Assembly (NCBI GenBank): GCA_034433515.1 | Contig: DAOUAL010000004.1 | Span: forward strand, 48,697-112,696 | From: Anaerolineae bacterium | GTDB taxonomy: Bacteria; Chloroflexota; Anaerolineae; UBA4142 | Length of the DNA: 64,000 nucleotides | Reading direction: 5' to 3' | In this document: piece after piece, positions 5,799-46,590 of the stretch | Layout of the letters: each line of letters begins with the position of its first letter | Numbering within the stretch: position 1 is the first letter of the stretch | Notes under the pieces: generated by a model | Database searches by the model: none | Told to the model about the DNA's origin: nothing | The model's input: the letters and a program-made list of their open reading frames with translations, nothing else | Translations under genes and position numbers: made by a program

Positions 5799-5812
5799 GA
5801 TAGGAACGACCG

Positions 5813-15270: not shown

Positions 15271-15280
15271 GGAGGTCGCC

Positions 15281-27687: not shown

Positions 27688-27716
27688 ACTATACTACGAG
27701 TTACTAGATTTGTCAA
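27688..27716 (-). promoter_or_regulatory. sigma70 promoter for the efflux adaptor
   Basis: Minus strand TTGACA, 17 bp, TATAGT. Confidence 0.75.
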
Positions 27717-27721
27717 AAAGG

Positions 27722-28194: not shown

Positions 28195-28267
28195 GCCACC
28201 TTAGCTCAATCGGTAGAGCAGCCGCATCGTAAGCGGCCGGTTTTCGGTTCAAGTCCGAAAGGTGGCT
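28195..28267 (+). tRNA. tRNA-Thr (CGT)
   Basis: Acceptor stem GCCACCT/AGGTGGC, D-arm GCTC/GAGC, anticodon stem GCCGC/GCGGC with loop ATCGTAA, T-arm TTCGG-TTCAAGT-CCGAA, discriminator U. CCA not encoded. Confidence 0.95.
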
Positions 28268-28335
28268 CTGAATTAAAACAACGCGCAGGTCTGGAATCTA
28301 GCGGGGTTCGAGGTCTGCGCGTTTGCACTTGGTGA

Positions 28336-28363: not shown

Positions 28364-28394
28364 GCAAAGCAGGGTACGCCGCTCACCTCAGCAC

Positions 28395-28492
28395 TAGTGC
28401 AACAACGTGAAAGAGTTGCAGACCAGACTGATGGGAAGACATTGACAGACGTGGCTAGAAATCGAGTTTTCACCACGCACTTGGGTGCACTA
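28395..28492 (+). mobile_element. MITE family B, copy 2 (98 bp)
   Basis: TA-GTGCAACAACGTGAAA...GGGTGCAC-TA. Aligns with the reverse complement of 5695-5798 with a 6-bp deletion in the right TIR. Confidence 0.85.
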
Positions 28493-32221: not shown

Positions 32222-33121
32222 ATGAAACTATCCCGACGTGATTTTCTGAAACTGTGCGGTGCCGGCGCCGCTATGCTGGGCATTGGTGCAACGACCGCCC
32301 CGCCCGATTTAGGCAAACTTGCGCGCGATGTTCCGATCGCCAAAAATGTTGGCGGTATCTTGATTGATACGACGCGTTGCGTGGGATGCAAGAGTTGTCA
32401 GATGGCCTGCAAAGTTGCCAATGGCCTTCCTACCAACGATCGCCCGGTCGCACTCTCCCCCACCACCTTGACGATTGTAGATTTTCGCAACATCTCGACC
32501 AAGGTGGATCAGCCAGAGATCCAGCCGGTCAAACGGCAATGTATGCACTGCCAGGATGCGGCGTGCGTCTCGGTGTGTCCGGTCGGTGCGCTGTACAAGA
32601 CGGAAAAGGGATTTGTTGCCTACGATGCTGACAAATGTATCGGTTGTCGCTATTGTATGGTGGCGTGTCCTTTCGGTGTGCCCAAGTATGATTGGGATTC
32701 TCCCAATCCCAAGATCAACAAGTGCGCTCTCGGTTGTATGGCGAACGGTCAACGCAACACGCCTGCCTGTGTGCAAGCATGTCCGCAAAAAGCGCTGTAC
32801 TATGGCGATCGCCAGGAATTGTTGACCATTGCGCGTTCGCAGATCGCCAACAATCCCGGCAAGTATCTCAACCACATTTACGGTGCCAACGAACTGGGCG
32901 GAACCGGTGTAATGTACCTTGCCAAGACGCCCTTTGATCAATTGGGTTTTCGCACCGATTTGCCGAACGAACCGTTGCCCAATCTGACCTGGGCGGCGCA
33001 AGAGAAAATCCCGGCGGTGCTGGCAAGCGTGTTTGCTCTGCTGAGCGGGATTGCATGGTGGACCCATCGCACCGAAGCCCGAAAGATGGCAGAGGTGCCG
33101 GTGGAAGCACAACACGATTAA
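32222..33121 (+). CDS. Tat-exported 4Fe-4S dicluster protein (HybA/NrfC family), C-terminal TM anchor
   Basis: SRRDFLK Tat signal; CVGCKSCQMAC, CMHCQDAACVSVCP, CIGCRYCMVACP and KCALGC...PACVQACP. Confidence 0.9.
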   Translation: MKLSRRDFLKLCGAGAAMLGIGATTAPPDLGKLARDVPIAKNVGGILIDTTRCVGCKSCQMACKVANGLPTNDRPVALSPTTLTIVDFRNISTKVDQPEIQPVKRQCMHCQDAACVSVCPVGALYKTEKGFVAYDADKCIGCRYCMVACPFGVPKYDWDSPNPKINKCALGCMANGQRNTPACVQACPQKALYYGDRQELLTIARSQIANNPGKYLNHIYGANELGGTGVMYLAKTPFDQLGFRTDLPNEPLPNLTWAAQEKIPAVLASVFALLSGIAWWTHRTEARKMAEVPVEAQHD

Positions 33122-33151
33122 CGCAAGCAAAACTATTTAGGAGAGATAACC

Positions 33152-34705
33152 ATGTCACCTACCCTTCAAACCTTACTGATTGCGTTCGTTGGTCTCGTGA
33201 TCGTCGTTGCGCCGTTTGTGTTCATCTTTGGCGTGCTCTACCCGCTCAAACGACGGCTGGAACCGGAAGAACAACCGTCGCGTGTCAAACTACCTTTCAA
33301 TGCTCATCCCATTGCGGTGTTTGCCGTTGCGCTGGTTGTTGTGGCGGCAATAGGCATCGTGCTTTACACGCTGATCACCAATCAATTTGTTGACTTGCTA
33401 ATCCTCTTTCGCGATGTGATTACGTTAGCGTACTTGTTCTTGCTGCGCATTGTCGCTCCGCTCGTCGTGTTGTACTTGGGCGGCCGCTGGTTGGAACGCA
33501 AGTTGCACCCAGCGACCACCGAGAGCGAGAGCCGTTTGGCCGAGCGCATGCCGGTTTTGCAAAAGGTCAAGATGCCTGTGCTCACCTCGCGCGGTTTGTT
33601 GGCGATTCTCTTCTTGGCAATCTTATGGATGGCTGCCATTGGCATTGCGATCTCGCGGTTTTTGTTTGGCTTGTCCTATGTGACGAACCTGACCGACGAA
33701 TTTCCGTGGGGACTGTGGATCGGCTTTGATGTGATGAGCGGCGTGGCGCTTGCTGCCGGCGGCTTTGTCATTGCCGGGACAGTGCACGTGTTCAACATCA
33801 AACGATTTCACCCGATTGTCCGCCCCGCCATTTTGACCGCGTTGCTCGGCTACTTGCTTGTCATCGTTGGCTTGTTGTTCGATCTGGGGCGTTGGTACAA
33901 CATATGGCACCCTATCTTTTTCTGGAACCTTCACTCGCCCATGTTCGAAGTGGCCTGGTGCGTAATGCTCTACACGACGGTTTTAATGTTCGAGTTCAGT
34001 CCGGTGGTCTTTGAAAAACTGCGTTGGCAACGTGCACTCAAATTCATGCGTGCCATCACCATCCCGCTCGTCATTCTAGGAATGTGTCTCTCCACATTAC
34101 ACCAATCCTCGCTGGGAGCGTTGCTCTTGATCGCGCCGGAGAAAATCAATCCGCTATGGTATTCGGCGTGGATTCCCGTGTTCTTCTTCCTCAGCGCCGT
34201 CGGCGTTGGGTTAGGCATGACGATTGTCGAAGCCAACCTGTCCGCGCGCGCACTGCATCGTAAATTGGAAACAGACCTGCTCGCCGATTTGGGCAAGGCG
34301 GCCTCGGTGGTCGTGGCGATCTATTTGTTCGCTCGCTTTGCTGATCTCATCTATCGCGGCGTCATCGGCTATGCGTTCATGCCCGGCTTTCATGCCACGA
34401 TTTTCTGGATCGAGATTCTGTTGGGCTTTGCCACACCGATGGGCTTGATGGCGTTCAAGCGGTTCCGCGCCAAACCTAATCTCGTGTTCTTGGGCGGCGG
34501 GCTGATCGTCTTTGGGGTGGTGTTCAATCGGTTGAACTCGTCTCTCTTGGGAACCTGGCAATACGTCAACAGTGCAAAACCATACATCCCTTCGGTTGCC
34601 GAGTTGACCATTACCATTGCGCTCGTCAGCGCGGGGGTAGTGGCGTTCGGACTTGCCGCCAAGTTCTTGCCCTTGTTCCCTAACGAGGAACATGCTCACG
34701 CTTAG
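33152..34705 (+). CDS. NrfD/PsrC/HybB-family quinone-interacting membrane subunit with N-terminal extension
   Basis: PWGLWIGFD, GVALAAGGF, FDLGR, SPMFEVAWC, LSTLHQSSLG, RLNS. About 140 extra N-terminal residues. Confidence 0.9.
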   Translation: MSPTLQTLLIAFVGLVIVVAPFVFIFGVLYPLKRRLEPEEQPSRVKLPFNAHPIAVFAVALVVVAAIGIVLYTLITNQFVDLLILFRDVITLAYLFLLRIVAPLVVLYLGGRWLERKLHPATTESESRLAERMPVLQKVKMPVLTSRGLLAILFLAILWMAAIGIAISRFLFGLSYVTNLTDEFPWGLWIGFDVMSGVALAAGGFVIAGTVHVFNIKRFHPIVRPAILTALLGYLLVIVGLLFDLGRWYNIWHPIFFWNLHSPMFEVAWCVMLYTTVLMFEFSPVVFEKLRWQRALKFMRAITIPLVILGMCLSTLHQSSLGALLLIAPEKINPLWYSAWIPVFFFLSAVGVGLGMTIVEANLSARALHRKLETDLLADLGKAASVVVAIYLFARFADLIYRGVIGYAFMPGFHATIFWIEILLGFATPMGLMAFKRFRAKPNLVFLGGGLIVFGVVFNRLNSSLLGTWQYVNSAKPYIPSVAELTITIALVSAGVVAFGLAAKFLPLFPNEEHAHA

Positions 34706-34743
34706 CGAGAAGAGCACCTATTCCGGTTGACCATTCCAGAGGA

Positions 34744-34772
34744 GTAGAGACGTTGGATTACAACGTCTCTAT
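34744..34772. repeat. REP-like palindrome (GTAGAGACG family)
   Basis: GTAGAGACGTTG-GATTA-CAACGTCTCTAT; same family as 50361-50393. Confidence 0.7.
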
Positions 34773-34823
34773 TTCCCGTTTGTAAGAACCATGGGATCCT
34801 GAACTTGAGTGTAAAAAGAGAAG

Positions 34824-36719
34824 ATGGAAAACATCCGGCGTTTGTTTTGGCACAAATTGATTCATTCGATTCGAAATGTGGGCTTGAGTACCCAGATGGC
34901 ATTATTGGTCATCGTGGGTACGGTAACGATGATCAGCGTGTTTGCCTATTTGGGTACCGGGGCACTTAGCGAAAGCACGCAACGCAATCTCCAAGAGCGT
35001 GTGCTTTTAGCGCAAATGACTGCCAGTTATATGGATGCCTTGCTCCAAAATATCGAGAACGCCTTGACTGAAACTGCCAGCGAATCCTATTGGACTGAAC
35101 CGCAACGTCTCGATTACGCGATGGAGCAAGCCTATCGGCGTCTTTCGTTCTTTGCCTCACGCGTGTTGTTGGTGGATGGGCAGGGTCGGATGATTGCTTC
35201 AAAACCAATCCTGCTGGGTGAACTCTCGTTGGCGGATGCACCACCCGTGCTTGCTGCGTTGGATGGCAAATCGTTTGCTGTTTCGCACATCGTCCAAACC
35301 TATCCTGCTCTAGGTCCGAGTATCTTTGCGGCAACCCCCATTCGCGATGCATCCGGCAAAGTGATTTACGCGCTCGTGATCACCCTGACTTTTAACAATA
35401 CCAACGCGCGCGCCTTTGCGCGTCCCATCGGTTTGGGCGAGAGCGGTTATATGGACTTGGTGGCGATGGATGGTCAGATTCTTGCCAGCACACGGCCCAG
35501 CCGGGTGAACCAGCAAAGCGATCACGAAGAGAGTCTGATGAGTATGATTCGTGATCATCGTCAGACAGTCTCGGCTTGCCACGATTGTCATACGCCGATT
35601 GCAGAAGGGGTGCCGCAAGCCGAAGTCCTCGCGTTTGCGCCGCTTGACCGCGCGTTGTGGGGTGTCACCATTCATCAAAGTGAAGCCGAAGTTTTTGCGC
35701 CGACCCGGCTTTTGCAGAGCCGCATCTTTGCGTTGATGACGGTGATGCTCACCGGCGCATTGACGCTGGTTTATCTCGCGACGCGGAGCGTGATCGTGCC
35801 CGTGCAAGAATTGACGGTTGCCACGCGCCGCATTGCGGAAGGTGATTTGGATTCACCGATCGAAGCCTCGGCGCAGGGCGAAGTGGGAGTGCTGGCACGC
35901 GCCTTTGATGAGATGCGTGTGCGTCTCAAGCAATCCACGGAAGAGATTCAGGCGCTGAATCGCGATCTGGACGCGCGGGTGCAAGAACGCACGACGCAAT
36001 ATGAGGCGGCGGCACGCGAGAATGCACGGCTGTACGCCGAGTTGCAACGCAAGGAACAGATGAAGGGTGAACTCCTCCATCGCATTATTTCCGCGCAAGA
36101 AGATGAACGCAAACGGATTGCGCGTGAATTGCATGATGAAACGAGCCAAAGTCTGAGCGCGTTTATGGTGGGCTTGCAAACGGTGCAGATGGCCTTGCAC
36201 CACGATCCGCAAAAAGCCAGCCAGCATCTCAAAAGTTGTGAAACCATCGCCGAATCCTTGTTGCAGAACATCCATCGGCTCATTGCCGATCTGCGTCCCA
36301 GTTTGCTCGATGATCTGGGTTTGGTGCCTGCCATTGCTTGGTATGGCGAGCAACGTTTGCATCCGCTGGGCATCCAGTTTCATATGGATCAAGAGGGCGT
36401 TACCGAACGGCTCCAACCAGCGTTGGAAACTGCCTTCTTTCGCATCGTTCAAGAAGCCATTACCAACACCACCCGTTATGCGCGCGCGTCGAATGTCTGG
36501 GTCAAGTTAATGCGCCAAGATGGTTTGGTGGTATTGCGCGTGGCGGATGATGGACAGGGTTTTGATCCTCAGGTGTTGCAACGCGCCAATTCCCAAGGGC
36601 AAGGATTAGGATTGCGCGGGATGCAAGAACGTGCTAGCATCTTGGGCGGCGAGTTTGAGTTGCAAACCGCTCCGGGTAAAGGCACGGTTATTACCGTGCG
36701 GGTGCCGCTTGCCGGCTAG
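34824..36719 (+). CDS. Sensor histidine kinase (Cache-like periplasmic domain with CxxCH, HAMP, HisKA_3)
   Basis: Two TM helices, ACHDCH between them, HAMP, EDERKRIARELHDE H-box, DDGQGF and GLGLRGMQER. Confidence 0.92.
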   Translation: MENIRRLFWHKLIHSIRNVGLSTQMALLVIVGTVTMISVFAYLGTGALSESTQRNLQERVLLAQMTASYMDALLQNIENALTETASESYWTEPQRLDYAMEQAYRRLSFFASRVLLVDGQGRMIASKPILLGELSLADAPPVLAALDGKSFAVSHIVQTYPALGPSIFAATPIRDASGKVIYALVITLTFNNTNARAFARPIGLGESGYMDLVAMDGQILASTRPSRVNQQSDHEESLMSMIRDHRQTVSACHDCHTPIAEGVPQAEVLAFAPLDRALWGVTIHQSEAEVFAPTRLLQSRIFALMTVMLTGALTLVYLATRSVIVPVQELTVATRRIAEGDLDSPIEASAQGEVGVLARAFDEMRVRLKQSTEEIQALNRDLDARVQERTTQYEAAARENARLYAELQRKEQMKGELLHRIISAQEDERKRIARELHDETSQSLSAFMVGLQTVQMALHHDPQKASQHLKSCETIAESLLQNIHRLIADLRPSLLDDLGLVPAIAWYGEQRLHPLGIQFHMDQEGVTERLQPALETAFFRIVQEAITNTTRYARASNVWVKLMRQDGLVVLRVADDGQGFDPQVLQRANSQGQGLGLRGMQERASILGGEFELQTAPGKGTVITVRVPLAG

Positions 36720-36730
36720 AGGGGTGTGCT

Positions 36731-37375
36731 ATGGCAAAGATTCGTGTGTTGATTGTGGATGATCACGCGATCCTGCGGGAAGGTCTGCGCGCGTTGTTGA
36801 ATTATTACGATGATGTTGAAATCGTGGGCGAAGCGCAAGATGGTGCCGAAGGCATCGAAAAAGTCAAAACGCTCTCCCCGGATGTTGTATTGATGGATAT
36901 TGCGATGCCGGGCATGAATGGCTTGGAAGCAACTCGGCTCATCCGCGAAACATATCCCCAAACCAATGTATTGGTCCTGACCCAACACGAGGATCGGCAA
37001 TATGTGTTGCCCTTGTTACAAGCCGGTGCGTCCGGCTTTATGACCAAACGTGCGTTAGGTACAGAATTGATTCATGCGTTGCGCACCGTTGCCAAAGGGG
37101 AAACATATCTCCATCCCGCCGCCGCGGCCACTGTGGTGCAAGAACTCCGGCATCAAGGTGAATCCATTGCCGATTCGCCCGAATCTATCACCCCGCGCGA
37201 GTTGGAAATTTTGCAACACATCGTGGCGGGCGAAACGAACGCCCAAATTGCCAATGCGCTTTCCATCAGCGTCAAGACTGTCGAATGGCATCGCGCGAAC
37301 TTGATGAGCAAATTAGACGCCCACACCGTGGCTGACTTGGTGCGCTATGCGATCGAACACGGCTTGGTGAGTTAG
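36731..37375 (+). CDS. NarL/LuxR-family response regulator
   Basis: IVDDH, LMDIAMP, and the HTH ITPRELEIL...TVEWHRANLMSKL. Confidence 0.95.
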   Translation: MAKIRVLIVDDHAILREGLRALLNYYDDVEIVGEAQDGAEGIEKVKTLSPDVVLMDIAMPGMNGLEATRLIRETYPQTNVLVLTQHEDRQYVLPLLQAGASGFMTKRALGTELIHALRTVAKGETYLHPAAAATVVQELRHQGESIADSPESITPRELEILQHIVAGETNAQIANALSISVKTVEWHRANLMSKLDAHTVADLVRYAIEHGLVS

Positions 37376-38649: not shown

Positions 38650-39561
38650 ATGCAATTAACTCGACGGGATTTTCTGAAACTGTGTGGAGCCGGCGCGGTG
38701 ATGCTTGGCGTCGGTGCAAAGATGGCGCCGCCTGACTTGGCGGTAGGACGCCTTCGCGTGCCTCAACCCTCACAACGTGGGAACGGTGTGTTGATTGATG
38801 TATCCAAGTGTGTGGGTTGCCAGCAATGTCAGATTGCTTGTCAAAAGAGCAAGAACTTGCCGGTGGACACAAAGCAACGCGCGCTGTCGGCAGTGTCACC
38901 TTCTGTCGTCAAGATGCTGAATGTTTCAACGGACCCGGCAAAGCCGGAAATCAAGCCGGTCAAGATGCAATGTATGAACTGCCTCAACCCGGCATGCGTG
39001 GCGGCGTGTACGGTGGGTGCGTTACAAAAGCGCCCGGACGGGCCAGTGGTGTACGACGCGAATCGGTGCATTGGTTGTCGCTATTGTATGTATGCGTGTC
39101 CGTTTGGCATTCCCACATTTGAGTGGGACAAGCAATTCTCGCTCATCGTCAAATGTGATGAATGTGCCGAACGTCAAGATCAGGGCAAGATTCCGGCGTG
39201 TGTAGAAGCGTGTCCTGCCAAAGCGTTGACGTTTGGGCCGCGCAGTGAACTCTTGACCATCGCCCATCAGCGTATCTACGATCCCAAGAGTACATATGTG
39301 CCCCAGGTTTACGGCGAACACGAAGTTGGTGGTACATCTATGTTGTACATCTCGGCGGTACCGTTTGAACGTTTGGGCTTGCCTACCCTATCGGACGAGG
39401 CGCCCGCCGAAGTCAATGCAACGATTATGCACGCCACGCCCACCATTGCCGCAGGGATGATGATGGCGTTGAGTGGAATGTACTGGCTCATCAAACAACG
39501 TGATCGGTTGGAAAAGCAACCAGCGTACGTCACCAATGAAAATCAGAATGGAGGTCATTAA
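38650..39561 (+). CDS. Second Tat-exported 4Fe-4S dicluster protein (HybA/NrfC family)
   Basis: TRRDFLK Tat signal, four Cys motifs and a C-terminal TM helix; paralog of 32222-33121. Confidence 0.9.
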   Translation: MQLTRRDFLKLCGAGAVMLGVGAKMAPPDLAVGRLRVPQPSQRGNGVLIDVSKCVGCQQCQIACQKSKNLPVDTKQRALSAVSPSVVKMLNVSTDPAKPEIKPVKMQCMNCLNPACVAACTVGALQKRPDGPVVYDANRCIGCRYCMYACPFGIPTFEWDKQFSLIVKCDECAERQDQGKIPACVEACPAKALTFGPRSELLTIAHQRIYDPKSTYVPQVYGEHEVGGTSMLYISAVPFERLGLPTLSDEAPAEVNATIMHATPTIAAGMMMALSGMYWLIKQRDRLEKQPAYVTNENQNGGH

Positions 39562-39563
39562 CG

Positions 39564-40919
39564 ATGTTTGGTATACTCATCCCTCAAGAGTTGATGGACG
39601 GTGTGGTGCTCTTGTTCATGTTCGGCGCACGGATTGGTTTACCGATTGCCTTGATGATGACGCTGGGCTATTGGGCGCAACGCAAACTTCACCCCGCCGG
39701 TAGTGAAGAGCCGCGCCGGCGACCGTTACCTAAACTGTTGCAACGGGTTTCGGATGAGGCGGATGCCTTGCCCGCGTGGTTGCCAACGATTGCTTTGCTC
39801 ACCCTCGTTGGCGGTGTGGCGATGCTCTATCGGTTATGGGTCGGGCTGGGGGCTTCGACCAACTTGAACCAAGCGTACCCATGGGGACTCTGGATCGGCT
39901 TTGACCTGTTTATGGTGGCGTTCTCCGGCGGTGCCTTTACACTGGCTACGTTGGTCTATGTGTTCCAAATGCATCGTTTCCACGCCGCCATCCGTCCCAC
40001 CGTTCTCACCGGGTTGTTGGGCTATACCTCGGTGTTGGTGATCTTGTTGATGGACTTGGGGCGCTGGGATCGGTTCTATCACTTTATCATCTATCCCAAC
40101 CTCAATTCTGCCCTCTTTGAAGTGTCGTGGTGCATCTTGCTATACACGCTGGTGTTGATTTCCGAATTTAGCCCGGTCATTATGGAGCGTTTTGGCTGGC
40201 ATCGCGCGCTAGGTCTGATGCGCAAGATCACGGTGCCACTGGTCATCGTTGGCTCAACCCTTTCGACGTTGCACCAGTCCTCGCTCGGTTCGCTGTTTGT
40301 GGTGATGACCGAACGCTTGCATCCCTTGTGGTACACACCGTTGATTCCGGTCTTGTTCTTTGTCTCTTCCATTGCCGCCGGCTTGGCGATGGTCGTTGCC
40401 GGGGCTACCGTGAGTTACTGGGTGTTCAAACGGAGTTTGCCACAACGTCTCGTCGCCGATCTCTCGACGTTCCTCCCGTGGATACTGGGACTGTACCTCG
40501 TCCTCAAATTTGGCGAACTATTTTGGGCGGGTGAAATCGAACTGCTCTGGACGAGCGGGGTGTATAGCCTATTGTTCTGGACCGAACTGATCATCGGCGC
40601 CATGTTCCCGATTGTGTGGTTCAATCTCAAGCGGGTGTATCACAGTCGGTTGCTTTCGTTGATGGGTGCGATCTTGGTGTTGGGTGGAATCTTTTTGAAT
40701 CGCTTTAATGCGGCGTGGTTCGCGCTCCGCCCGGTGCCCGGCTATACCTACTTTCCCAGTCTCGCCGAGATTCTGATTCAGTTGGGGGTGATCTGCGGCA
40801 TCATCACCGTCTATACGTTAGTCGGGTATTACCTACCCTTGTTTGAAGGCACGATTACGCCGGAAGAAGAAATCAAACAAAGGGCCGGCGTGCAACCGCA
40901 ACCCCGCCCAGTGCATTAA
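39564..40919 (+). CDS. Second NrfD/HybB-family membrane subunit
   Basis: PWGLWIGFD, MDLGRW, SALFEVSWC, LSTLHQSSLG and RFNA. Confidence 0.9.
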   Translation: MFGILIPQELMDGVVLLFMFGARIGLPIALMMTLGYWAQRKLHPAGSEEPRRRPLPKLLQRVSDEADALPAWLPTIALLTLVGGVAMLYRLWVGLGASTNLNQAYPWGLWIGFDLFMVAFSGGAFTLATLVYVFQMHRFHAAIRPTVLTGLLGYTSVLVILLMDLGRWDRFYHFIIYPNLNSALFEVSWCILLYTLVLISEFSPVIMERFGWHRALGLMRKITVPLVIVGSTLSTLHQSSLGSLFVVMTERLHPLWYTPLIPVLFFVSSIAAGLAMVVAGATVSYWVFKRSLPQRLVADLSTFLPWILGLYLVLKFGELFWAGEIELLWTSGVYSLLFWTELIIGAMFPIVWFNLKRVYHSRLLSLMGAILVLGGIFLNRFNAAWFALRPVPGYTYFPSLAEILIQLGVICGIITVYTLVGYYLPLFEGTITPEEEIKQRAGVQPQPRPVH

Positions 40920-40930
40920 CCTCTTTCTAT

Positions 40931-40973
40931 GCCCTCCCGGTTCGTCTCGCTGATGAATTAGGGAGGGCTTTTT
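40931..40973 (+). terminator. Intrinsic terminator
   Basis: GCCCTCCC...GGGAGGGC followed by TTTTT. Confidence 0.75.
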
Positions 40974-41000
40974 GCATTTCCCCCCAAGCGTCTGTATAAT
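40972..41000 (+). promoter_or_regulatory. Promoter for the second two-component system
   Basis: TTGCAT, 17 bp, TATAAT. Confidence 0.65.
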
Positions 41001-41010
41001 TGAACTAGGT

Positions 41011-41168
41011 GTTAGTCGCTAGTCGCTAGTTGCTAGTCACTAGTTGCCAGTCGCTAGTCACTAGTCTCTAGCGCCTAACGGCTAGCGCCTAACGGCTAAC
41101 GCCTACCGACTAACGACTAACAACTACCGACTAACAACTACCGACTAACAACTAGCGACTAACGACTA
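41011..41168. repeat. Long inverted heptamer tandem array
   Basis: About 8 GCTAGTC-type units followed by about 14 ACTAACG/ACTAGCG-type units, which are their reverse complement. Ends directly at ATG 41169. Confidence 0.92.
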
Positions 41169-43118
41169 ATGAACGAACTCACCACTTTTCTCCAAGCCAA
41201 CATTATCATCATCTACTTTGTGTACGGTCTGGCGCACTTTGTGACCGGGATGGCGGTTGCGTTAGAAAGTGGACGCGCGACGCAATTGCGTCTTTCGCGC
41301 GCTTTGCCTTTCCTTGCCGCCTTTGGCATCACGCACGGCATCAACGAGTGGATTGAAATGTTTTCGATGATCTCTGCCCAAATTCCCACCTTGGCGCAAG
41401 AACCTCGTTGGGCGGAAATGATCAAACTGGCTTGGAAAGGGATTTCGTTTTATTTCCTGCTGGAATTTGGCGTTCGTCTGTTGAGCGAACATGTGCCGCA
41501 GCAACAACGCTGGTTACGTTTGCTTCCCTTCTTTGGATTGTTCACGTGCTTGATCGGTTCGTTCATTATGTATCTGCAAGCCCGGCCCCTGGGCTATCCG
41601 CAACCGGGTTTGGTCGAAGTCTGGGTCAACTATTCCCTAGGTGTGCCGGCGTCTATCTTTTCGGTGATTGCTTTACTGGCTCAGCGGCGCGCCTTCTTGC
41701 GCGACAATATGCCACAATTTGGCGGCGATTCGGTGGGGGCGGCGTTGGCGATTGGCTGGTACTGCGTGCTCGATCAAATCATTGATGAATCCGCCTTCAT
41801 CTTTCCGGCGAACATCCTCAACACCCACACCTTCCTCAACGTGGTCGGATTGCCGGTCGAAATCTTTCGCACGATGGCAGTAACCGCGTTGGCATTCTTT
41901 GTCATCCGCACCTTGCGCGTGTTCGAAGTCGAGTATGCGCAACGCTTGGAAGCAGCGAATCGTGCGCGCTTTGCCGCGCAAGCAGAAGCCACACGCGAGT
42001 TGATGGTCTTGTTTGAAGCGTGCCGCATTCTCGGCACCTCGCTCGATGTCAATCAACTCATTAACGATTCGTTGACCAAGATCGTCAACTCGCTTGACCC
42101 CATGATCGCCGGCTCGGTGTATCTCTACGATGCGCAACATCACGCGCTGACCTTGCGCGCCTGCAAAATGCGTTCCGAACTATCCTCGTTGAGCCAAGCC
42201 GAGATCGCTGCCGAACAACGCGCCGCGCACGAAGCGTACGACAAATCGGAGATTGCGTACGAGTCCGAGCTGCAAGCCGGCACCTCGTTTGTGGCGGTCC
42301 CGTTGGTGTCACAGGGCAAGACCGTAGGCGCATTGACGTTGGCGCATCGCGCGGCATTTTCAAATTACGCCGTGATTCAAACGCTGGCGCGGCAACTGGG
42401 GATTGCCTTGGAGAATGCTTATCTCTACAGCGAGGTGCAGGAAAAGGAAAAACTGCGCGGGCAACTCTTGGAACGTGCGGTGGCGGCCCAAGAAGAAGAA
42501 CGCAAACGCATTGCACGCGAATTGCACGATGATACCGGGCAATGGCTTACCGCACTGGGCGTGGGCTTGAGCGGGGTGGAGCAAACGATGGCGCAGGATC
42601 CGGAAAAGGCGCAATATCAAATCGCCGAATTGAAAAATATGACGATGCACGCGATTGACAATCTGCGCCAATTCGTTTCCGATCTGCGCCCGGCGATGCT
42701 CGACGATATGGGGTTGGTCTCGGCGTTGCGTTGGCTGGCACAGCAGTACGCTGAGCGAACGGGTTTGCCGATTCACGTCGAAACGGTTGGAAGCAAGCGT
42801 CGTTTGTCATCCCAGGTTGAAACGGTTTTGTTCCGCATCGCGCAAGAAGGGTTGAACAATATCGGACGGCACGCGCAAGCGACCCACGCTCATATCCGTT
42901 TAGAATTTGCACCCACCTTTGTCTCACTCATCGTTCAAGATAATGGTAAGGGATTTGTGGTGGACCAAGTGTTGGGGCTTCACCCCGAACGACGCGCGTG
43001 GGGCTTGCTGGGTGTGCAAGAGCGCGTGGCATTGGTGGGCGGCAAGTTTAATGTGGAATCCGAACCCGGCAAGGGGACTCGGTTGATGGTCGAAATTCCG
43101 ATTACCGACAGCGAATGA
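41169..43118 (+). CDS. Sensor histidine kinase (polytopic membrane sensor, GAF, HisKA_3)
   Basis: About 6 N-terminal TM helices with THGINEW, a GAF-like region, EEERKRIARELHDD, DNGKGF and WGLLGVQER. Confidence 0.9.
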   Translation: MNELTTFLQANIIIIYFVYGLAHFVTGMAVALESGRATQLRLSRALPFLAAFGITHGINEWIEMFSMISAQIPTLAQEPRWAEMIKLAWKGISFYFLLEFGVRLLSEHVPQQQRWLRLLPFFGLFTCLIGSFIMYLQARPLGYPQPGLVEVWVNYSLGVPASIFSVIALLAQRRAFLRDNMPQFGGDSVGAALAIGWYCVLDQIIDESAFIFPANILNTHTFLNVVGLPVEIFRTMAVTALAFFVIRTLRVFEVEYAQRLEAANRARFAAQAEATRELMVLFEACRILGTSLDVNQLINDSLTKIVNSLDPMIAGSVYLYDAQHHALTLRACKMRSELSSLSQAEIAAEQRAAHEAYDKSEIAYESELQAGTSFVAVPLVSQGKTVGALTLAHRAAFSNYAVIQTLARQLGIALENAYLYSEVQEKEKLRGQLLERAVAAQEEERKRIARELHDDTGQWLTALGVGLSGVEQTMAQDPEKAQYQIAELKNMTMHAIDNLRQFVSDLRPAMLDDMGLVSALRWLAQQYAERTGLPIHVETVGSKRRLSSQVETVLFRIAQEGLNNIGRHAQATHAHIRLEFAPTFVSLIVQDNGKGFVVDQVLGLHPERRAWGLLGVQERVALVGGKFNVESEPGKGTRLMVEIPITDSE

Positions 43119-43789
43119 GGGAGGATGGCTTGGCGAAAATTCGTTTGTTGATGGTGGATGATCACGAAATCGTCCGCGCCGGCTTGCGGATGTTATTGCA
43201 AAGCCAGCCCGACATTGAAATCATCGGCGAAGCGGACAATGGACGCGACGCGGTTGCCAAAGCCAAATCGCTCACGCCCGACATCGTGTTGATGGATATT
43301 TCGTTGCCGGATATGGACGGCTTTGAAGCGACGCGCCAGATCAAACGCGCCGCGCCGAACGTCGCCATCCTCGCGTTGACGATGCACGAGAGCGATGAAT
43401 ATTTTTTCAAGATGCTCAACGCTGGCGCATCGGGCTATGTCCCCAAAAAAGCCGCGCCCACCGATCTGGTTACCGCGATTCACACAATTCGCGACGGCGG
43501 CGTGTTTCTCTATCCTTCGCTCGCCAAATCACTCGTACGCGATTATATGGGACGCGCGAGCGAAGCCGGCGCAAAAGAAGCGCTCGACGGCTTGACCGAC
43601 CGCGAGCAAGAAGTGTTGAAACTCATCGCCGATGGTTTGACGAATCAGGAGATCGCGGACCAGCTGACGATCAGCGTGAAAACGGTAGAACGGCACCGCG
43701 CAAACATTATGAGCAAACTCAACTTGCACAGCCGCACCGAGTTGGTCAAGTATGCGATACGCAAGGGGTTGATTGATGTGGAGGGATGA
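43115..43789 (+). CDS. NarL/LuxR-family response regulator
   Basis: MVDDH, LMDISLP and LTDREQEVL...TVERHRANIMSKL. True start may be TTG 43130. Confidence 0.95.
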   Translation: MREDGLAKIRLLMVDDHEIVRAGLRMLLQSQPDIEIIGEADNGRDAVAKAKSLTPDIVLMDISLPDMDGFEATRQIKRAAPNVAILALTMHESDEYFFKMLNAGASGYVPKKAAPTDLVTAIHTIRDGGVFLYPSLAKSLVRDYMGRASEAGAKEALDGLTDREQEVLKLIADGLTNQEIADQLTISVKTVERHRANIMSKLNLHSRTELVKYAIRKGLIDVEG

Positions 43790-43845
43790 GAAAGGCAAGG
43801 AGGGTAGGAAATAGAATGAGGCAAGAAGATTGAGGTTGAGGGAAT

Positions 43846-43945
43846 GTTGTCAAAATAGATCGTCGGGCTTTTGTGCTTTCAGCGTACCTGACACGCACGC
43901 GTGTAAATGGAGAAATGTTATGGGCGAAAGAACAAGTCTTTTCTA
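43846..43945 (+). pseudogene. Probable C-terminal remnant of a RelE-like toxin partner of DUF2283
   Basis: Frame reads VVKIDRRAFVLSAYLTRTRVNGEMLWAKE, resembling the end of toxins that precede DUF2283 genes. An in-frame stop lies at 43837 and there is no start. Confidence 0.4.
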
Positions 43946-44156
43946 TGATCGTGAAGCGGACGTCTTGTATTTCTCAAAAGGTAAGCCATATCCCGAGCAA
44001 GAATCGCAGGAAATTGGCGATGATATGATCGTGCGCTTGAACCCCACGACCCACGAAGTTGAGGGCATCACAATTCTGAATTTTTCGCGCCGCTTTGCCA
44101 GCGTGGACAATCTATCCCTCCCGGTTACAGCGCAAATGCAACTGGCTCAAGCATAG
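43920..44156 (+). CDS. DUF2283-domain protein (putative antitoxin)
   Basis: YDREADVLY...GDDMIVRLNP.T.EVEGITILNFS signature. Confidence 0.85.
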   Translation: MGERTSLFYDREADVLYFSKGKPYPEQESQEIGDDMIVRLNPTTHEVEGITILNFSRRFASVDNLSLPVTAQMQLAQA

Positions 44157-44193: not shown

Positions 44194-45858
44194 ATGCCAC
44201 CCAAATTCTTCATCACCCATTCATGGAAAGACATTGAGTTTGCTAAACGCCTGACCGACGACTTGCGCCGGCACGGGTTGGAAGGATTTTTCGACGCCTA
44301 CTCGATTCAGCCCGGCGACGACATTGCCTCGCGCGTCGCGCATGGATTGGAAGAGTGCGACGTTTACGTTCCATTATTGTCGCCTGCTGCTGTTGGGTCC
44401 AAATGGTGCGAACTGGAAATCAACGCGGCGATCAACTTGAGTCTGGAACCAGATCGTAATGGCAGACCGCGCATCATTCCCGTTGTTGTCGTGCCGTGTA
44501 AATTGCCGACGCTCTTGCGCGGTCGTTTGTACATCAATTTTCACCAACGTTACGACGACGCGCTGAAGCAATTGTTGGCAGAATTTGGCGTGACGGTTCA
44601 ACCACCCGCGCCATCACAACCAACCCACGCCACGCCCACCGCCGAGCCGCCGAAACCTGCGCCTACACCATCGCGTCCCCAGTCCACACTCTCGCGCGAT
44701 GAACTGGCGCATCTCTACACCGAAGCACGCGCGTTACAAAGCGCAGGCAACTTGCGCGATGCCGCCGCACTGTTTGAAAAGATTGGTGATTACCGCGATG
44801 CGCCTACGCGCTTGCGAAAACTCCAACTCTATCTTGCCGCCGACGAGTTAATGAAACAAGCGCTGGCGGACAAGGACGACCGCACCGAACCGTGGCTGGA
44901 CGCCCACGCGCGCTTGGAAGAATTATTGCAACTCGATCCGCAGTTTCTGGACGCGCGCGCCCGGCTGGACACCGTGAACCGTTGGCTTGCACTGCCAGAG
45001 GCATACGAACGTCTGCTGGACGCGTTGGATGTGGATGATTGGGCAAAAGCGTTCCCGTTGTTCGAGCAAATCCGCAGCGTCAAGCCGACTTACAAACGCA
45101 CCCAAATTTTATTTGAGCACGCGTGGCCGCAAATGGTTCAAGCTGGCGTAACGAAAAAGGTTGGCAAAGATGGCAGAGAAATGATGCTTGTCCCGGCGGG
45201 CAAGTTTGTGATGGGCGAAGGCAGTGACGCACATGAAGTTTATCTCGATTCATTCTACATTGATCGCTACCCTGTGACGAACGCGGATTACAAAAAGTTT
45301 GTGGACGCCACAAAACATTCAGCCCCACCCCATTGGCAGAACGGAAAAATCCCGCAGGGCAAAGAAAACCATCCCGTCGTCAATGTGACTTGGGATGACG
45401 CGAACGCGTACGCGCAATGGGCAGGCAAGCGTTTGCCAACCGAAGCGGAATGGGAAAAGGCAGCAAGTTGGGACGAGATTAAAAAACAAAAACGCGTCTA
45501 TCCCTGGGGTAACGATTTTGACGCGGGCAAATGCAATTCATCCGAATCGGGAATTGGAGACACCACGCCGGTTGGAAAATGCTCACCACAGGGAGACAGT
45601 TTCTACGGTGTCGCAGATATGGCAGGCAACGTGTGGGAATGGTGTGCAGATTGGTACGACGAGAACTATTATAAAAATTCACCGAAAGAAAATCCCACAG
45701 GACCTGCTTCAGGACAATATCGGGTGTTGCGCGGCGGTTCTTGGTTCAACGATCAGAGCCTCGTGCGCGCCGCGTATCGCGTCAGGCTCAATCCTTTCAG
45801 CAGGTTCGGGAGCTTCGGTTTTCGCGTGGTCGTGTCCCATTCTGACTCTGGGCTCTGA
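44194..45858 (+). CDS. TIR domain - helical/TPR-like - FGE-sulfatase (C-type lectin fold) protein; probable DGR target
   Basis: TIR_2 (FFITHSWKD...SKWCELEI). FGE motifs [36 protein letters not shown] and RVLRGGSW...GFR. Confidence 0.9.
   Translation: [554 protein letters not shown]
45721..45840 (+). other. Putative diversity-generating retroelement variable region (VR)
   Basis: Only 13 A in 120 nt, versus 26 in the preceding 60. Most invariant codons lack A. 12 of 13 positions that are Asn in typical templates are NNC/NNT codons. Confidence 0.7.
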
Positions 45859-45883
45859 TCCCTCTGAACTCTGATGCTCTGAA
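45840..45883 (+). repeat. Degenerate CTCTGA heptamer-type repeats after the VR
   Basis: TCTGACT CTGGGCT CTGATCC CTCTGAA CTCTGAT GCTCTGA. Confidence 0.6.
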
Positions 45884-45892
45884 CGGGGTGGG

Positions 45893-45925
45893 GTAGGGGC
45901 GAGGTTACCTCGCCCCCGCCCCTAC
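45893..45925 (+). repeat. GTAG-type REP palindrome upstream of RAYT
   Basis: GTAG-GGGCGAGG-TTA-CCTCGCCC; identical core at 46213-46239. Confidence 0.85.
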
Positions 45926-45941
45926 CACCGACGGATATGTT

Positions 45942-46463
45942 ATGAAATACGATCCATCAAAACATCATCGTCGTTCCATTCGTTTGAAAGATTATGATTA
46001 CAGTCAAGCCGGCGCATATTTTTTAACCATCGTCGTCCGGAATCACGAATGTTTGTTGGGCGATGTGGTGGATGGGGAAATGCGGGTAAACGGATTTGGC
46101 AAGATGGTCCAAAAATGCTGGGATGAATTGTCGGTGCATTATTCCAATGTGGAACTGGACGCGTTTGTGGTGATGCCCAATCATGTACACGGGATTGTGG
46201 TGATTGTGGACCGTAGGGGCGAGGTTACCTCGCCCCTACAATTGCATGATCAACCAACCTTGGGTCGAATAATCGGATATTTCAAATATCAATCTACCAA
46301 ACTCATCAACGAATTGCGTGGCACGCCAGGCGCGCCGGTATGGCAACGCAATTATTTCGAACACATCATCCGTAACGACCACGATTTCGAACGCATTCGT
46401 GAATACATTGCCTACAATCCTGTGGGTTGGCAAATGGATGATGAAAATCCCAACCACACATGA
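45942..46463 (+). mobile_element. REP-associated tyrosine transposase (RAYT, IS200-like HUH)
   Basis: HHRRSIRL..YDYSQ.GAYFLTI, MPNHVHGI (HUH), WQRNYFEHIIR and YIAYNP (catalytic Tyr). Confidence 0.93.
46213..46239 (+). repeat. REP inserted in-frame inside the RAYT gene
   Basis: GTAGGGGCGAGGTTACCTCGCCCCTAC, encoding RRGEVTSPLQ. Confidence 0.85.
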
Positions 46464-46497
46464 AAGCAAGAATATTCGCGTAACCGCGTCGAATAAA

Positions 46498-46530
46498 AAA
46501 CCTCGAAGGTTTCCAAACCCTTCGAGGTCT
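46498..46530. repeat. REP-like palindrome (AAACCTCGAAGG family)
   Basis: ACCTCGAAGG-TTTCCAAAC-CCTTCGAGGT; related to 63922-63954. Confidence 0.65.
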
Positions 46531-46541
46531 TGACTGTCTTC

Positions 46542-46590
46542 CTGCCTACTGCCTACCGCCTACCGCTTACCGCCTCCTGCCTTCTGCTTG
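46542..46590. repeat. Heptamer tandem repeat overlapping the trxB 3' end
   Basis: Seven C(T/C)GCCTA-like units; the trxB stop at 46560-46562 lies within them. Confidence 0.8.

What the first reader, a model, noticed from the sequence alone, without database searches (positions are those of the whole stretch)
44194..45925. TIR-CLec gene with a DGR variable-region signature and no reverse transcriptase or template in the window
Seen: the last ~40 codons read [40 protein letters not shown]. The 120 nt contain only 13 A, against 26 in the preceding 60 nt. Scaffold codons mostly avoid A (cgg gtg ttg cgc ggc ggt tct tgg...ggt ttt cgc gtg gtc gtg tcc). 12 of 13 would-be Asn positions are NNC/NNT codons, as A-to-N mutagenesis of AAC/AAT predicts. 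Degenerate CTCTGA repeats and a GC-rich hairpin (the REP at 45893) follow. Known: DGRs diversify the C-terminal CLec (FGE-sulfatase) fold, and retrohoming uses a downstream hairpin. Inference: this is a remote DGR target coupling a hypervariable ligand sensor to a TIR domain that keeps the WCELE glutamate, so it may be an NADase. That would be a candidate adaptive conflict or recognition receptor. The RAYT-type REP might double as the DGR hairpin.
Basis: partly seen in the sequence, partly recalled or inferred. Interest (0 to 1): 0.85.

Follow-up and report, generated by a model that had tools for sequence, protein, structure and literature searches.

The report
Remote DGR target: TIR-lectin sensor gene
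This Chloroflexota gene fuses a TIR (NAD-cleaving type) domain to a lectin-fold sensor whose last ~100 bases are a genuine diversity-generating-retroelement variable region, but the reverse transcriptase and template are not nearby, so it is a remote or recently orphaned member of a known class of hypervariable bacterial "antigen sensors".

Summary
ORF 44194-45858 encodes TIR_2, a helical repeat and an FGE-sulfatase (CLec) domain. Its last ~120 nt are the most A-poor stretch of the gene, and YTCTGR repeats and a GC hairpin follow. No RT, Avd or template lies in the 64-kb window or 10 kb beyond its end.

A-depletion alone is weak evidence. The comparative evidence is strong.
- The nearest homologue (95% nt identity) has a complete DGR (RT-Avd-TR) directly downstream, and identity to the window collapses exactly at the VR boundary.
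- A syntenic ortholog (L170) has the same cassette-less layout. It differs at 28/104 VR bases against 5% elsewhere. Twenty-four of the 28 are at codon positions 1-2, and scaffold and 3' elements are identical.

So the VR was rewritten in trans, from a template of a different type than the nearest relative's. That template could not be found, because the source genome is in no searchable collection. Three near-identical assemblies share one VR, so current activity is undetermined.

The hairpin is a REP of the RAYT-like gene that sits where the RT should be. RAYT-like genes recur right after cassette-less CLec genes in other phyla.

TIR/CLec DGR targets and remote targets are published, so this is a new member of a known kind.

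The parts
44194..45858 (+). ORF of 554 aa: TIR, Pro-rich linker, helical repeat, then CLec/FGE-sulfatase fold. It has no signal peptide or TM segment at the N-terminus, since the protein starts directly with the TIR strand.
   Evidence: The exact protein is also on GCA_037444225.1 and SRR11582170.
44206..44577 (+). TIR_2 domain (aa 5-128). E75, in W71-C-E-L-E75, is at the catalytic-glutamate position.
   Evidence: Pfam E 1e-27. Aligned to 7uxr, 3h16 and 3ozi. E75 is invariant in 15 homologues. PADLOC gives only TIR-level hits.
44599..44682 (+). Pro/Thr/Ala-rich linker (aa 136-163), predicted disordered.
   Evidence: AF2 pLDDT below 50.
44695..45144 (+). Alpha-helical repeat region (aa 168-317), TPR-like. 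There is no NTPase domain.
   Evidence: AF2 shows 8 helices with pLDDT about 90. Some homologues carry Pfam TPR hits.
45175..45831 (+). FGE-sulfatase / C-type-lectin fold domain (aa 328-546). It lacks the FGE catalytic cysteine pair.
   Evidence: Pfam E 6e-60. PDB hits include FGEs and the DGR variable protein TvpA, 2y3c. The sequence [17 protein letters not shown] has no Cys.
45721..45840 (+). DGR variable region (VR). The variable sites lie at 45745-45816, plus 45719-45720. Scaffold codons contain no A.
   Evidence: The identity break against L003 falls at about 45722. 28 of 104 nt differ from ortholog L170: 24 at codon positions 1-2, and 17 nonsynonymous against 1 synonymous codon.
45840..45884 (+). 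Degenerate YTCTGR repeats (about 6 copies). The ORF reads into them and stops at TGA 45856-45858.
   Evidence: Equivalent Y-rich repeats follow the VR in the confirmed DGR loci L003, L171, L176, L177, L019, L053 and L093. They are identical in L170.
45885..45926 (+). G-run plus GC-rich palindrome GGTAGGGGCGAGG-TTA-CCTCGCCCC(CGCCCC)TACC. It occupies the place of the DGR target hairpin and is a REP of the downstream RAYT-like gene.
   Evidence: DNA fold -20.4 kcal/mol, z -3.9. A second exact copy of the core lies at 46216-46236. L170 has a perfect 16-bp stem.
45942..46463 (+). RAYT-like (HUH/Y1) ORF of 173 aa. It sits where the RT-Avd-TR cassette sits in the nearest relative.
   Evidence: NCBIfam REP_Tyr_transpos 66.9 bits (cutoff 80) and Pfam Y1_Tnp E 7e-5. 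It is orthologous in L170, 14/522 nt different.
46213..46239 (+). Perfect 13-bp-stem copy of the REP palindrome inside the RAYT-like coding sequence, just after the HUH motif.
   Evidence: The family-wide insertion hot spot is shown.

Best explanation
The gene encodes a cytoplasmic, single-chain sensor-effector. A C-terminal C-type-lectin (FGE-sulfatase fold) domain binds ligand. Its binding surface is encoded by a diversity-generating-retroelement variable region at 45721-45840. A helical repeat joins it to an N-terminal TIR domain that keeps the catalytic glutamate.

Shown: the VR belongs to a Chloroflexota family that DGRs diversify. In this lineage the RT-Avd-TR cassette is not next to the gene. 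A RAYT-like gene with its REP hairpin sits in that place.

Shown by comparison: the VR was rewritten after this cassette-less layout arose. The template differs from that of the nearest relative. It is a 'GFRVVVSH'-type TR with AAC, AGG, ATC and CAA codons.

Inferred: the locus is a remote target serviced in trans by a DGR elsewhere in the genome. cDNA made from the template, with adenines randomised, replaces the VR. It is guided by the conserved VR 3' end, the YTCTGR repeats and the downstream GC hairpin.

Inferred from family knowledge: ligand binding by the diversified lectin surface switches on the TIR domain, by NAD+ cleavage or nucleotide signalling, as in other conflict systems.

Whether the trans-acting DGR is still present and active in this genome could not be determined.
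For: 1. Architecture: TIR_2 plus FGE-sulfatase. E75 aligns with the catalytic Glu of known TIR NADases. AF2 shows a helical repeat between the two domains.
2. Nearest homologue: P0001/L003 is 95% identical in DNA over 44195-45745. It carries RT, bAvd and a 120-nt TR directly downstream, and all its roughly 25 VR/TR mismatches are at TR adenines.
3. Identity break: window-L003 identity is about 96% along the gene and collapses exactly at the VR 5' boundary. The window VR has 56 non-A mismatches to the L003 TR and 26-27 to the TRs of L176 and L177, so it was written from another template.
4. Hypervariation: proteins at least 90% identical to each other (P0002, P0248, P0249, P0251, P0252) differ almost only at the VR positions. 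The family alignment varies at exactly the TR-AAC codons.
5. Ortholog L170 (SRR12999147): it has the same neighbours (response regulator, RAYT-like ORF, trxB) and no RT or TR. Its VR differs at 28/104 nt against 79/1524 in the gene body. Twenty-four of the 28 are at codon positions 1-2. Differing codons are 17 nonsynonymous to 1 synonymous, against 33:34 in the body. Nineteen of the 28 differing pairs contain an A. Every difference fits a single template with A at that site.
6. Conserved cis elements: the 24-nt 5' scaffold and the 76 nt after the last variable site, including the repeats, have zero differences between the orthologs despite 5.2% divergence in the body (P = 0.018 for the 76 nt).
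7. 3' architecture: confirmed DGR loci of relatives share the order VR, short Y-rich repeats, G-run, GC hairpin.
8. Selection: the gene body is under purifying selection, roughly dN/dS 0.3 from the 33:34 codon counts.
9. Literature: TIR-, CHAT-, kinase- and NTPase-CLec DGR targets, trans diversification of incomplete loci, and remote VPs are documented (PMC10907252, PMC7517822).
Against: - No TR, RT or Avd lies in the 64-kb window or in the 10 kb beyond its end (L173).
- A scaffold pattern (33 fixed bases, variable codons as N) found neither the VR nor a TR in genome contigs or metagenome contigs. A stricter version found nothing in viral contigs. The source genome itself could therefore not be searched.
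- No near-identical TR pseudo-ORF is in the protein database, although TR pseudo-ORFs of other Chloroflexi are.
- The window, GCA_037444225.1 and SRR11582170 differ by 8-9 SNPs over 12-15 kb yet share an identical VR.
- Relatives lose the cassette repeatedly: the RT is cut to 39 codons by an AbiE module in L171/L172, the cassette is replaced in L004, and it is absent in L169.
- The hairpin loop is TTA, not the GRNA tetraloop that BPP-1 needs (PMC3240598).
- TIR NADase activity and the ligand are untested.
Confidence: 0.55

Rival explanations
1. Orphaned (fossil) variable region. The VR was written by a DGR in the past, in trans or before relocation. The genome no longer has a working RT and template, so the sequence is now frozen and evolves like any other gene end. 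The protein works as a fixed-specificity TIR-lectin protein.
For: - No cassette lies in 74 kb around the gene.
- The VR is identical in three assemblies that differ elsewhere by 8-9 SNPs.
- In the sister lineage, where the RT is demonstrably truncated, the identical protein P0248 also recurs in two samples.
- Cassette loss is frequent in the family.
- No matching TR pseudo-ORF was found.
Against: - The cassette-less ortholog L170 carries a differently written VR, so trans diversification operated after the cis cassette was gone.
- Scaffold and 3' cis elements are perfectly conserved between the orthologs.
- No non-DGR-type decay, such as synonymous scaffold changes, indels or stops, is seen in the VR.
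- The three assemblies may come from one sample series, and consensus assemblies hide minority VR alleles.
Confidence: 0.35
2. The VR differences between the window and L170 come from homologous recombination (allelic or paralog exchange of the gene's 3' end), not from retrohoming at this locus. Diversification happened only in strains or paralogs that have a cis cassette, and finished alleles were then imported.
For: - The identical scaffold and 3' flank would give recombination anchors.
- The window's VR type ('GFRVV' tail plus CTCTGA repeats) matches the more distant L004 rather than its closest relative L003. VR-end swapping between lineages has therefore happened.
Against: - No locus with this VR type and a cis cassette was found in any collection.
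- The differences are single scattered bases inside codons, not a divergent tract with flanking synonymous changes.
- The imported alleles would still be DGR products, so the region remains a DGR VR.
Confidence: 0.06
3. It is an ordinary FGE-sulfatase-family C-terminus with no DGR history. The A-poor composition and the RVLRGGSW...GFRV motif are just the family scaffold.
For: - Most FGE-sulfatase homologues fetched had no RT or TR within 10 kb. A TR was found in the locus for only about 10 of 186 CLec C-termini.
- A-depletion of similar size occurs in 9-25% of them.
Against: - The nearest homologue has a complete DGR.
- The identity break falls at the VR boundary.
- Substitution density in the VR is five times that of the gene body against the ortholog. 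It is almost all nonsynonymous and at positions 1-2.
- The FGE catalytic cysteines are absent.
- The 3' repeats and hairpin are of DGR type.
Confidence: 0.02

Closest known systems
DGR-diversified putative antigen sensors of multicellular bacteria (Dore et al. 2024, PMC10907252)
   Same: Both have a C-terminal CLec domain with a DGR VR fused to conflict-system effector domains; TIR, CHAT and peptidase domains are named there. Both are cytoplasmic. That paper also reports incomplete loci diversified in trans, transposon or MITE erosion of DGR loci, and filamentous Chloroflexi among the hosts.
   Different: The window protein has no STAND/NACHT or MoxR/vWA partner. It is a minimal TIR, helical repeat and CLec chain. 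The template and RT were not found, and diversification in reads was not measured here.
Remote variable proteins (RVPs) of cyanobacterial DGRs (Vallota-Eastman et al. 2020, PMC7517822)
   Same: Both are CLec-ending multidomain proteins far from the RT. TIR-like N-terminal domains are listed there, and IS200/IS605-family transposases were noted near VPs.
   Different: RVP status there is defined by VR/TR identity within one genome. That could not be tested here. The phylum is also different (Chloroflexota).
Complete DGR of the nearest relative (L003, GCA_037440625.1): TIR-CLec target, RT, bAvd, TR
   Same: The gene body is 95% identical in DNA. The domain order is the same, and repeats plus a GC hairpin follow the VR.
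   Different: L003 has the cassette in cis, and its VR/TR type ends in GFRCAQ*. The window has a RAYT-like gene instead, a [8 protein letters not shown]-type VR, and other genomic neighbours.
TvpA (Treponema denticola, PDB 2Y3C) and Mtd (Bordetella phage BPP-1): structurally defined DGR variable proteins
   Same: The CLec/FGE-type fold carries the VR at the C-terminus (TvpA hit E 3e-16). A hairpin or cruciform lies 3' of the VR (PMC3240598).
   Different: Those are surface or phage-tail binding proteins with a cis DGR and no TIR. The BPP-1 hairpin has a GRNA tetraloop directly after IMH. Here about 45 nt of repeats intervene and the loop is TTA.
Bacterial TIR NADase effectors (ThsB of Thoeris, AbTir, PdTIR, TIR-SAVED)
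   Same: TIR_2 fold with the conserved W-x-x-x-E glutamate.
   Different: No partner genes of Thoeris, CBASS or retron systems are nearby. Activation would come from a fused lectin sensor. Activity is untested.
Formylglycine-generating enzyme / SUMF1 / EgtB family
   Same: Same Pfam family, PF03781, and the same fold.
   Different: The catalytic Cys pair of FGE lies in the stretch that is the VR here, and it is absent. There is no DinB domain as in EgtB. Annotations such as 'sulfatase modifying factor' are by fold only.
RAYT / REP (REP-associated tyrosine transposase) elements
   Same: The ORF is HUH/Y1-type with a GC palindrome (GTAGGGGC...GCCCCTAC) at its 5' flank.
   Different: It scores below the NCBIfam cutoff. 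Only two palindrome copies are in 64 kb, and one of them is inside the coding sequence. Its position is tied to the 3' end of a DGR-type gene.

Membership tests
DGR target gene / variable region | VR at the 3' end of an ORF, on a CLec (FGE-sulfatase) fold | tested here: met
   Pfam FGE-sulfatase at aa 328-546. The variable sites 45745-45816 lie in the last 40 codons.
DGR target gene / variable region | A template repeat in the same genome whose mismatches to the VR are at template adenines | tested here: inconclusive
   No TR is in the window or in any fetched locus. The source genome is absent from genome contigs, metagenome contigs and viral contigs, so the rest of the genome is untested. 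A minimal template was inferred from two VR alleles only.
DGR target gene / variable region | A DGR-clade reverse transcriptase (with Avd) in the genome | tested here: inconclusive
   None in the window or in the next 10 kb. Present next to the nearest homologue. The two closest public RT homologues that I looked up belong to other samples.
DGR target gene / variable region | Site-specific hypervariation among close relatives, at codon positions 1-2 | tested here: met
   Window against L170: 28/104 nt in the VR against 79/1524 in the body, with 24 of the 28 at positions 1-2. Cluster-2 proteins differ almost only in the VR.
DGR target gene / variable region | Conserved 3' cis elements (IMH-like VR end and a GC hairpin or cruciform downstream) | tested here: met
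   Repeats plus a GC hairpin follow the VR, as in the confirmed loci L003, L171, L176, L177, L019, L053 and L093. The IMH/IMH* comparison itself needs the TR.
DGR target gene / variable region | Ongoing diversification within a population | not testable with these tools
   No read data are available. Three consensus assemblies share one VR.
TIR NADase effector | TIR fold | tested here: met
   TIR_2 E 1e-27. AF2 pLDDT is 80-90 over aa 1-130.
TIR NADase effector | Catalytic glutamate four residues after the conserved Trp | tested here: met
   W71...E75 aligns with NWTEYE (7uxr), EWPQKE (3h16) and KWCLME (L6, 3ozi). E75 is invariant in alignment A1.
TIR NADase effector | NAD+ cleavage or cyclic ADPR-type product formation | not testable with these tools
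   This needs a biochemical assay.
Formylglycine-generating enzyme (SUMF1) | Catalytic, copper-binding cysteine pair in the C-terminal segment | tested here: not met
   The segment aligned to the FGE active site reads [22 protein letters not shown], with no cysteine. That FGE's cysteine pair lies in this segment is from established knowledge of FGE.
STAND/NACHT 'antigen sensor' of Dore et al. | Central STAND NTPase domain between effector and CLec | tested here: not met
   No NTPase family was hit in Pfam, NCBIfam or PADLOC. AF2 shows aa 168-317 as a helical repeat.
RAYT / REP element (for ORF 45942-46463) | HUH and catalytic Tyr motifs, with a family-model score above threshold | tested here: inconclusive
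   The HUH motif PNHVHG is present. NCBIfam REP_Tyr_transpos gives 66.9 bits against a cutoff of 80. Pfam Y1_Tnp gives 23.4 bits against a cutoff of 23.
RAYT / REP element (for ORF 45942-46463) | Flanking REP palindromes that are repeated in the genome | tested here: inconclusive
   The same palindrome lies 5' of the ORF and inside it. There are only two copies in 64 kb. A different hairpin lies 3' of the ORF, at 46497-46531.

The most novel reading that the evidence does not exclude
RAYT-like HUH genes and their REP hairpins are specifically tied to the 3' end of DGR-type lectin genes that lack a cis cassette.

The association: in 1.9 Mb of fetched loci, 5 of 6 independent RAYT-like genes found by the HMM start 40-230 nt after a CLec gene end on the same strand, in several phyla. 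A seventh, more divergent one in L004, which the HMM missed, lies about 180 nt after the CLec stop.

The reading: the REP hairpin stands in for the DGR target cruciform. It may, perhaps together with the HUH nuclease, allow or help retrohoming at remote targets. Alternatively, these elements home to the DGR hairpin and displace the RT-Avd-TR cassette or disperse targets.
Probability: 0.15. Interest if true: 0.65.

Novelty: new member of a known kind. Interest (0 to 1): 0.42.

Why it matters
If the remote-target reading holds, this is a compact, one-protein example of a programmable sensor wired to a TIR effector: a hypervariable lectin surface, a helical spacer and a TIR domain, with no NTPase. 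That makes it a simple system for testing how ligand binding by a DGR-diversified domain switches on a TIR enzyme.

The small clade around it holds an intact cis DGR (L003), an RT truncated by an AbiE module (L171/L172), a cassette replaced by a RAYT-like gene (L004) and a relocated cassette-less copy (window, L170). This is a natural series for studying how DGR targets become remote or orphaned.

The recurrent RAYT-like gene at the VR hairpin suggests a link between hairpin-recognising HUH elements and DGR target sites. That link has only been touched on in the literature, which noted IS200/IS605 transposases near VPs in cyanobacteria.

Tried and rejected
1. Template inside the window. Repeat search and a scan of both strands that counts a match when the candidate base equals the VR base or is A. 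Nothing scored above background.
2. RT and Avd inside the window, by tblastn with the RT and Avd of L003 and L005. None found.
3. Public template by DNA pattern. A 33-base scaffold pattern with all variable codons as N found nothing in genome contigs or metagenome contigs. A refined pattern found nothing in viral contigs. Even the VR itself was not hit, so the source genome is not in those collections and the negative says nothing about that genome.
4. The search for related loci with the whole protein. Mostly distant FGE-sulfatase genes came back, useful only as background.
5. Tracing an RT of the same MAG through RT homologues. P0126 and P0123 are from other samples. Cluster look-ups give no accession numbers for MAG proteins, so assigning RT hits to the MAG by accession number was not possible.
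6. Searching the protein database with the peptide of the inferred template. This found many TR pseudo-ORFs, including the 'GFRVVVSH' type (P0256, P0260-63), but none matching this VR. The TRs of L176 and L177 have 26-27 non-A mismatches to it.
7. Extending the context. Ten kb past the window end holds glycosidases and an ABC transporter. Upstream gave only a 4-kb contig.
8. A-depletion as a classifier. It separates confirmed VRs from other CLec ends poorly, so I rejected it as evidence on its own.
9. The AF2 model of the CLec domain had low confidence with 15 sequences, so I ran no fold search.
10. Rfam at gathering thresholds found no known RNA family in the window.
Full report
**What is there.** ORF 44194..45858 (+) encodes 554 aa. 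Pfam finds TIR_2 at aa 5-128 (E 1e-27) and FGE-sulfatase at aa 328-546 (E 6e-60). An AlphaFold model built on 15 homologues gives four parts:
- a confident TIR domain, aa 1-130;
- a disordered Pro-rich linker, aa 136-163;
- a confident eight-helix repeat, aa 168-317;
- a poorly modelled lectin domain.

There is no signal peptide, TM segment or NTPase domain. PDB sequence hits are FGEs, the DGR variable protein TvpA (2y3c) and bacterial and plant TIR domains. The motif W71-C-E-L-E75 aligns with the W-x-x-x-E catalytic glutamate of 7uxr, 3h16 and L6, and E75 is invariant in the family. The stretch that holds the FGE catalytic cysteines has no cysteine here, so the protein is not a formylglycine-generating enzyme.

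**Check of the observation.** All base counts are right: 13 A in 45721-45840 and 26 A in the preceding 60 nt. This is the most A-poor 120-mer of the gene, and only 0.77% of the window's 120-mers have as few A. The YTCTGR repeats (45840-45884) and a GC palindrome (45885-45926, -20.4 kcal/mol as DNA, z -3.9) follow. No template, RT or Avd is in the window. A-depletion by itself is weak evidence. Among 160 distant CLec C-termini with no template in their locus, 9% have an equal or lower VR/upstream A ratio.

**Source.** The exact protein is on a Chloroflexota MAG (GCA_037444225.1) and on a Logan contig of SRR11582170. Both are 99.93-99.95% identical to the window, with 8-9 SNPs and none in this gene. 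The closest named relative is Candidatus Aquidulcis, class Ca. Limnocylindria.

**Evidence that this is a DGR variable region.**
- The nearest homologue, P0001 (L003, GCA_037440625.1), is 92% identical in protein and 95% in DNA. Directly downstream it carries a 365-aa RT, a bAvd and a 120-nt template. All of its roughly 25 VR/TR mismatches are at template adenines.
- Window-L003 identity is about 96% per 60 nt along the gene. It collapses exactly where L003's TR homology begins, at about 45722.
- In the alignment of 15 family members, everything is conserved except the residues encoded by AAC/AAT codons of the L003 template.
- Proteins at least 90% identical to each other (P0002, P0248, P0249, P0251, P0252) differ almost only there.

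**A different template wrote this VR.** The window VR is not a product of an L003-type template. Its scaffold codons differ at non-A sites, giving 56 non-A mismatches. Its tail is GFRVVVSH..., not GFRCAQ*. Templates ending GFRVVVSH exist in other Chloroflexi, where they are called as N-rich pseudo-ORFs such as P0256. Two such complete DGRs (L176, L177) have AGG and CAG codons in their templates at the places where the window VR has AGG and CAG. This explains the four non-NNC/T codons. Those templates still have 26-27 non-A mismatches to the window VR, so they are not its template.

**The key comparison.** P0243 (L170, SRR12999147) is a true ortholog. It has the same response-regulator gene upstream, the same 173-aa RAYT-like ORF and the same trxB/rsmE downstream. 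Flanks are about 95-96% identical, and it has no RT or TR.

| Measure, window against L170 | Gene body | VR |
|---|---|---|
| Differing bases | 79/1524 | 28/104 |
| Differences at codon positions 1-2 | 39 of 79 | 24 of 28 |
| Differing codons, nonsynonymous : synonymous | 33 : 34 | 17 : 1 |

Nineteen of the 28 differing pairs include an A, although A is only about 10% of the VR. Every difference is explained by one template with A at that site.

The 24-nt 5' scaffold and the 76 nt after the last variable site have no difference at all (P = 0.018 for the 76 nt at the body rate). The cassette-less layout is shared by both orthologs, so the VR was rewritten after that layout arose. That means rewriting in trans. 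The minimal inferred template reads ...W [32 protein letters not shown]....

**What could not be shown.** The source genome is not in genome contigs, metagenome contigs or viral contigs; even the VR scaffold pattern found nothing. No fetched locus holds a fitting template. The 10 kb beyond the window end has no DGR gene. The three near-identical assemblies share one VR. The same is seen for P0248 in two samples whose RT is truncated. So the present state is open between 'remote target of a living DGR' (my estimate 0.55) and 'recently orphaned VR' (0.35).

**Cassette turnover in the clade.**
- L003 has an intact cassette.
- In L171/L172 only 39 RT codons remain after the hairpin, followed by an AbiEi/AbiEii module.
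- L004 (Ca. Aquidulcis) is syntenic with L003 and keeps the hairpin and the CGAAAAATTTT that precedes the RT start. After that it has a RAYT-like ORF with its own palindromes.
- L169 has no cassette and no hairpin.
- The window/L170 lineage has the gene in another neighbourhood. Homology to L003 begins at the start codon.

**The 3' elements and the RAYT-like gene.** Confirmed DGR loci in this and related clades (L003, L171, L176, L177, L019, L053, L093) share the order VR, short Y-rich degenerate repeats, G-run, GC hairpin, often followed by AAAATTTT. The window has the repeats and the G-run.

The hairpin, however, is the palindrome GTAGGGGCGAGGTTACCTCGCCCCTAC. It recurs exactly inside the RAYT-like ORF at 46213-46239. 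It is therefore a REP of that element, sitting where the DGR hairpin should be. The VR changed after the RAYT-like gene arrived, so the REP hairpin is at least compatible with retrohoming. In BPP-1 the stem structure, not its sequence, matters, but the loop does (PMC3240598). Here the loop is TTA.

An HMM of the RAYT-like family was run on 1.91 Mb of all fetched loci. It found 7 hits, representing 6 independent lineages.
- Five lineages (window/L170, L026, L131, L090, L099) start 40-230 nt downstream of a CLec gene end on the same strand, and none of these loci has RT, Avd or TR.
- L131 keeps a DGR-type hairpin plus AAAATTT before the REP.
- Only L162 lies elsewhere.
- The L004 RAYT-like ORF, about 180 nt after the CLec stop, is too divergent for this HMM and is a seventh case.

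The chance expectation for that position is about 2% per hit. IS200/IS605 transposases near cyanobacterial VPs were noted before (PMC7517822). I found no paper linking RAYT/REP and DGRs.

**Comparison with the known.** TIR-, CHAT-, kinase- and NTPase-CLec DGR targets are described, as are trans diversification of incomplete loci, remote VPs and transposon erosion (PMC10907252, PMC7517822). The window gene is therefore a new member of a known kind. It differs in its minimal architecture, which has no NTPase. The recurrent RAYT-like neighbour is the only part that may go beyond what is published.

Noticed in passing
window 45942-46463 (palindromes 45892-45926 and 46213-46239); L004 11789-12114; alignment A2: The RAYT-like ORF carries its own REP palindrome inside the coding sequence, right after the HUH motif (peptide RRGEVTSPLQ). 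An unrelated RAYT-like ORF in L004 does the same with another palindrome. The family is huge: 27,954 50%-cluster representatives at E<=1e-3. It has a 0-150 aa hypervariable insert at exactly this site, made of palindrome-type peptides (GEGTSPLQ, VGAGSPRP, VGAGFKPAP, GGETPPLQ), sometimes in tandem.
   Followed up: partly
L026 10876-11469; L131 1879-2793; L090 5730-6134; L099 6403-7098; L004 11876-12484; window 45942-46463: RAYT-like genes lie immediately downstream, on the same strand, of cassette-less CLec/FGE-sulfatase genes in several phyla. Five of 6 independent HMM hits in 1.9 Mb sit there, as does the divergent L004 ORF that the HMM missed. L131 and L004 keep the DGR-type hairpin and the AAAATTT that normally precede the RT.
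   Followed up: partly
L171 11736-13180; L172 3881-3997: An AbiEi/AbiEii toxin-antitoxin module has replaced the DGR cassette and left only the first 39 codons of the RT after the target hairpin. The identical target protein P0248 occurs in two JGI samples.
   Followed up: yes
window 41005-41169; 46542-46587; 63716-63747; 15243-15271: Heptamer tandem arrays lie in intergenic DNA. TAGTCGC x8 faces CTAACGA x13 as a long imperfect inverted pair just upstream of the histidine-kinase gene at 41169. CTGCCTA x6 lies at the trxB end. GTCCTTC-type repeats lie elsewhere. Short tandem repeats are thus common in this genome, so the YTCTGR repeats after the VR may not be DGR-specific.
   Followed up: no
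window 32222-36943 vs 38650-43342: A roughly 6.4-kb tandem duplication, 70-79% identical, of a module. The module holds a TAT-signal 4Fe-4S protein, an NrfD-like membrane protein, a GAF histidine kinase and a LuxR-type response regulator (D7, D9-D11, D15, D18).
   Followed up: no
window 1638-1797 / 27716-27918 and 5711-5799 / 28394-28482: Long-range inverted copies, 90-93% complementary, of non-coding elements of about 50-90 nt. One set flanks tRNA-Thr(CGT) at 28195-28268. They may be MITE-like repeats. Rfam at gathering thresholds reported nothing in the window, not even this tRNA.
   Followed up: no
window 19289-24136: A 1615-aa ORF that holds 3.8 copies of a 408-nt (136-aa) repeat about 73% alike.
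   Followed up: no
window 43864-44144: The segment carrying the DUF2283 ORF (43830-44156), directly upstream of the TIR-CLec gene, is present in the window, L001 and L002 but absent from the ortholog L170. It is an indel of about 281 nt.
   Followed up: no
window 42630-42668: Six SNPs within 39 nt of the histidine-kinase gene separate the window from L001 and L002, which are otherwise 99.95% identical. This may be a short recombination tract or a strain variant.
   Followed up: no
P0242, P0244-P0247: Five AT-rich 44-46-aa peptides (MIALFQEKRN...) are filed in the same 90% cluster as the 547/554-aa TIR-CLec proteins. This looks like a clustering artefact of the protein collection.
   Followed up: no
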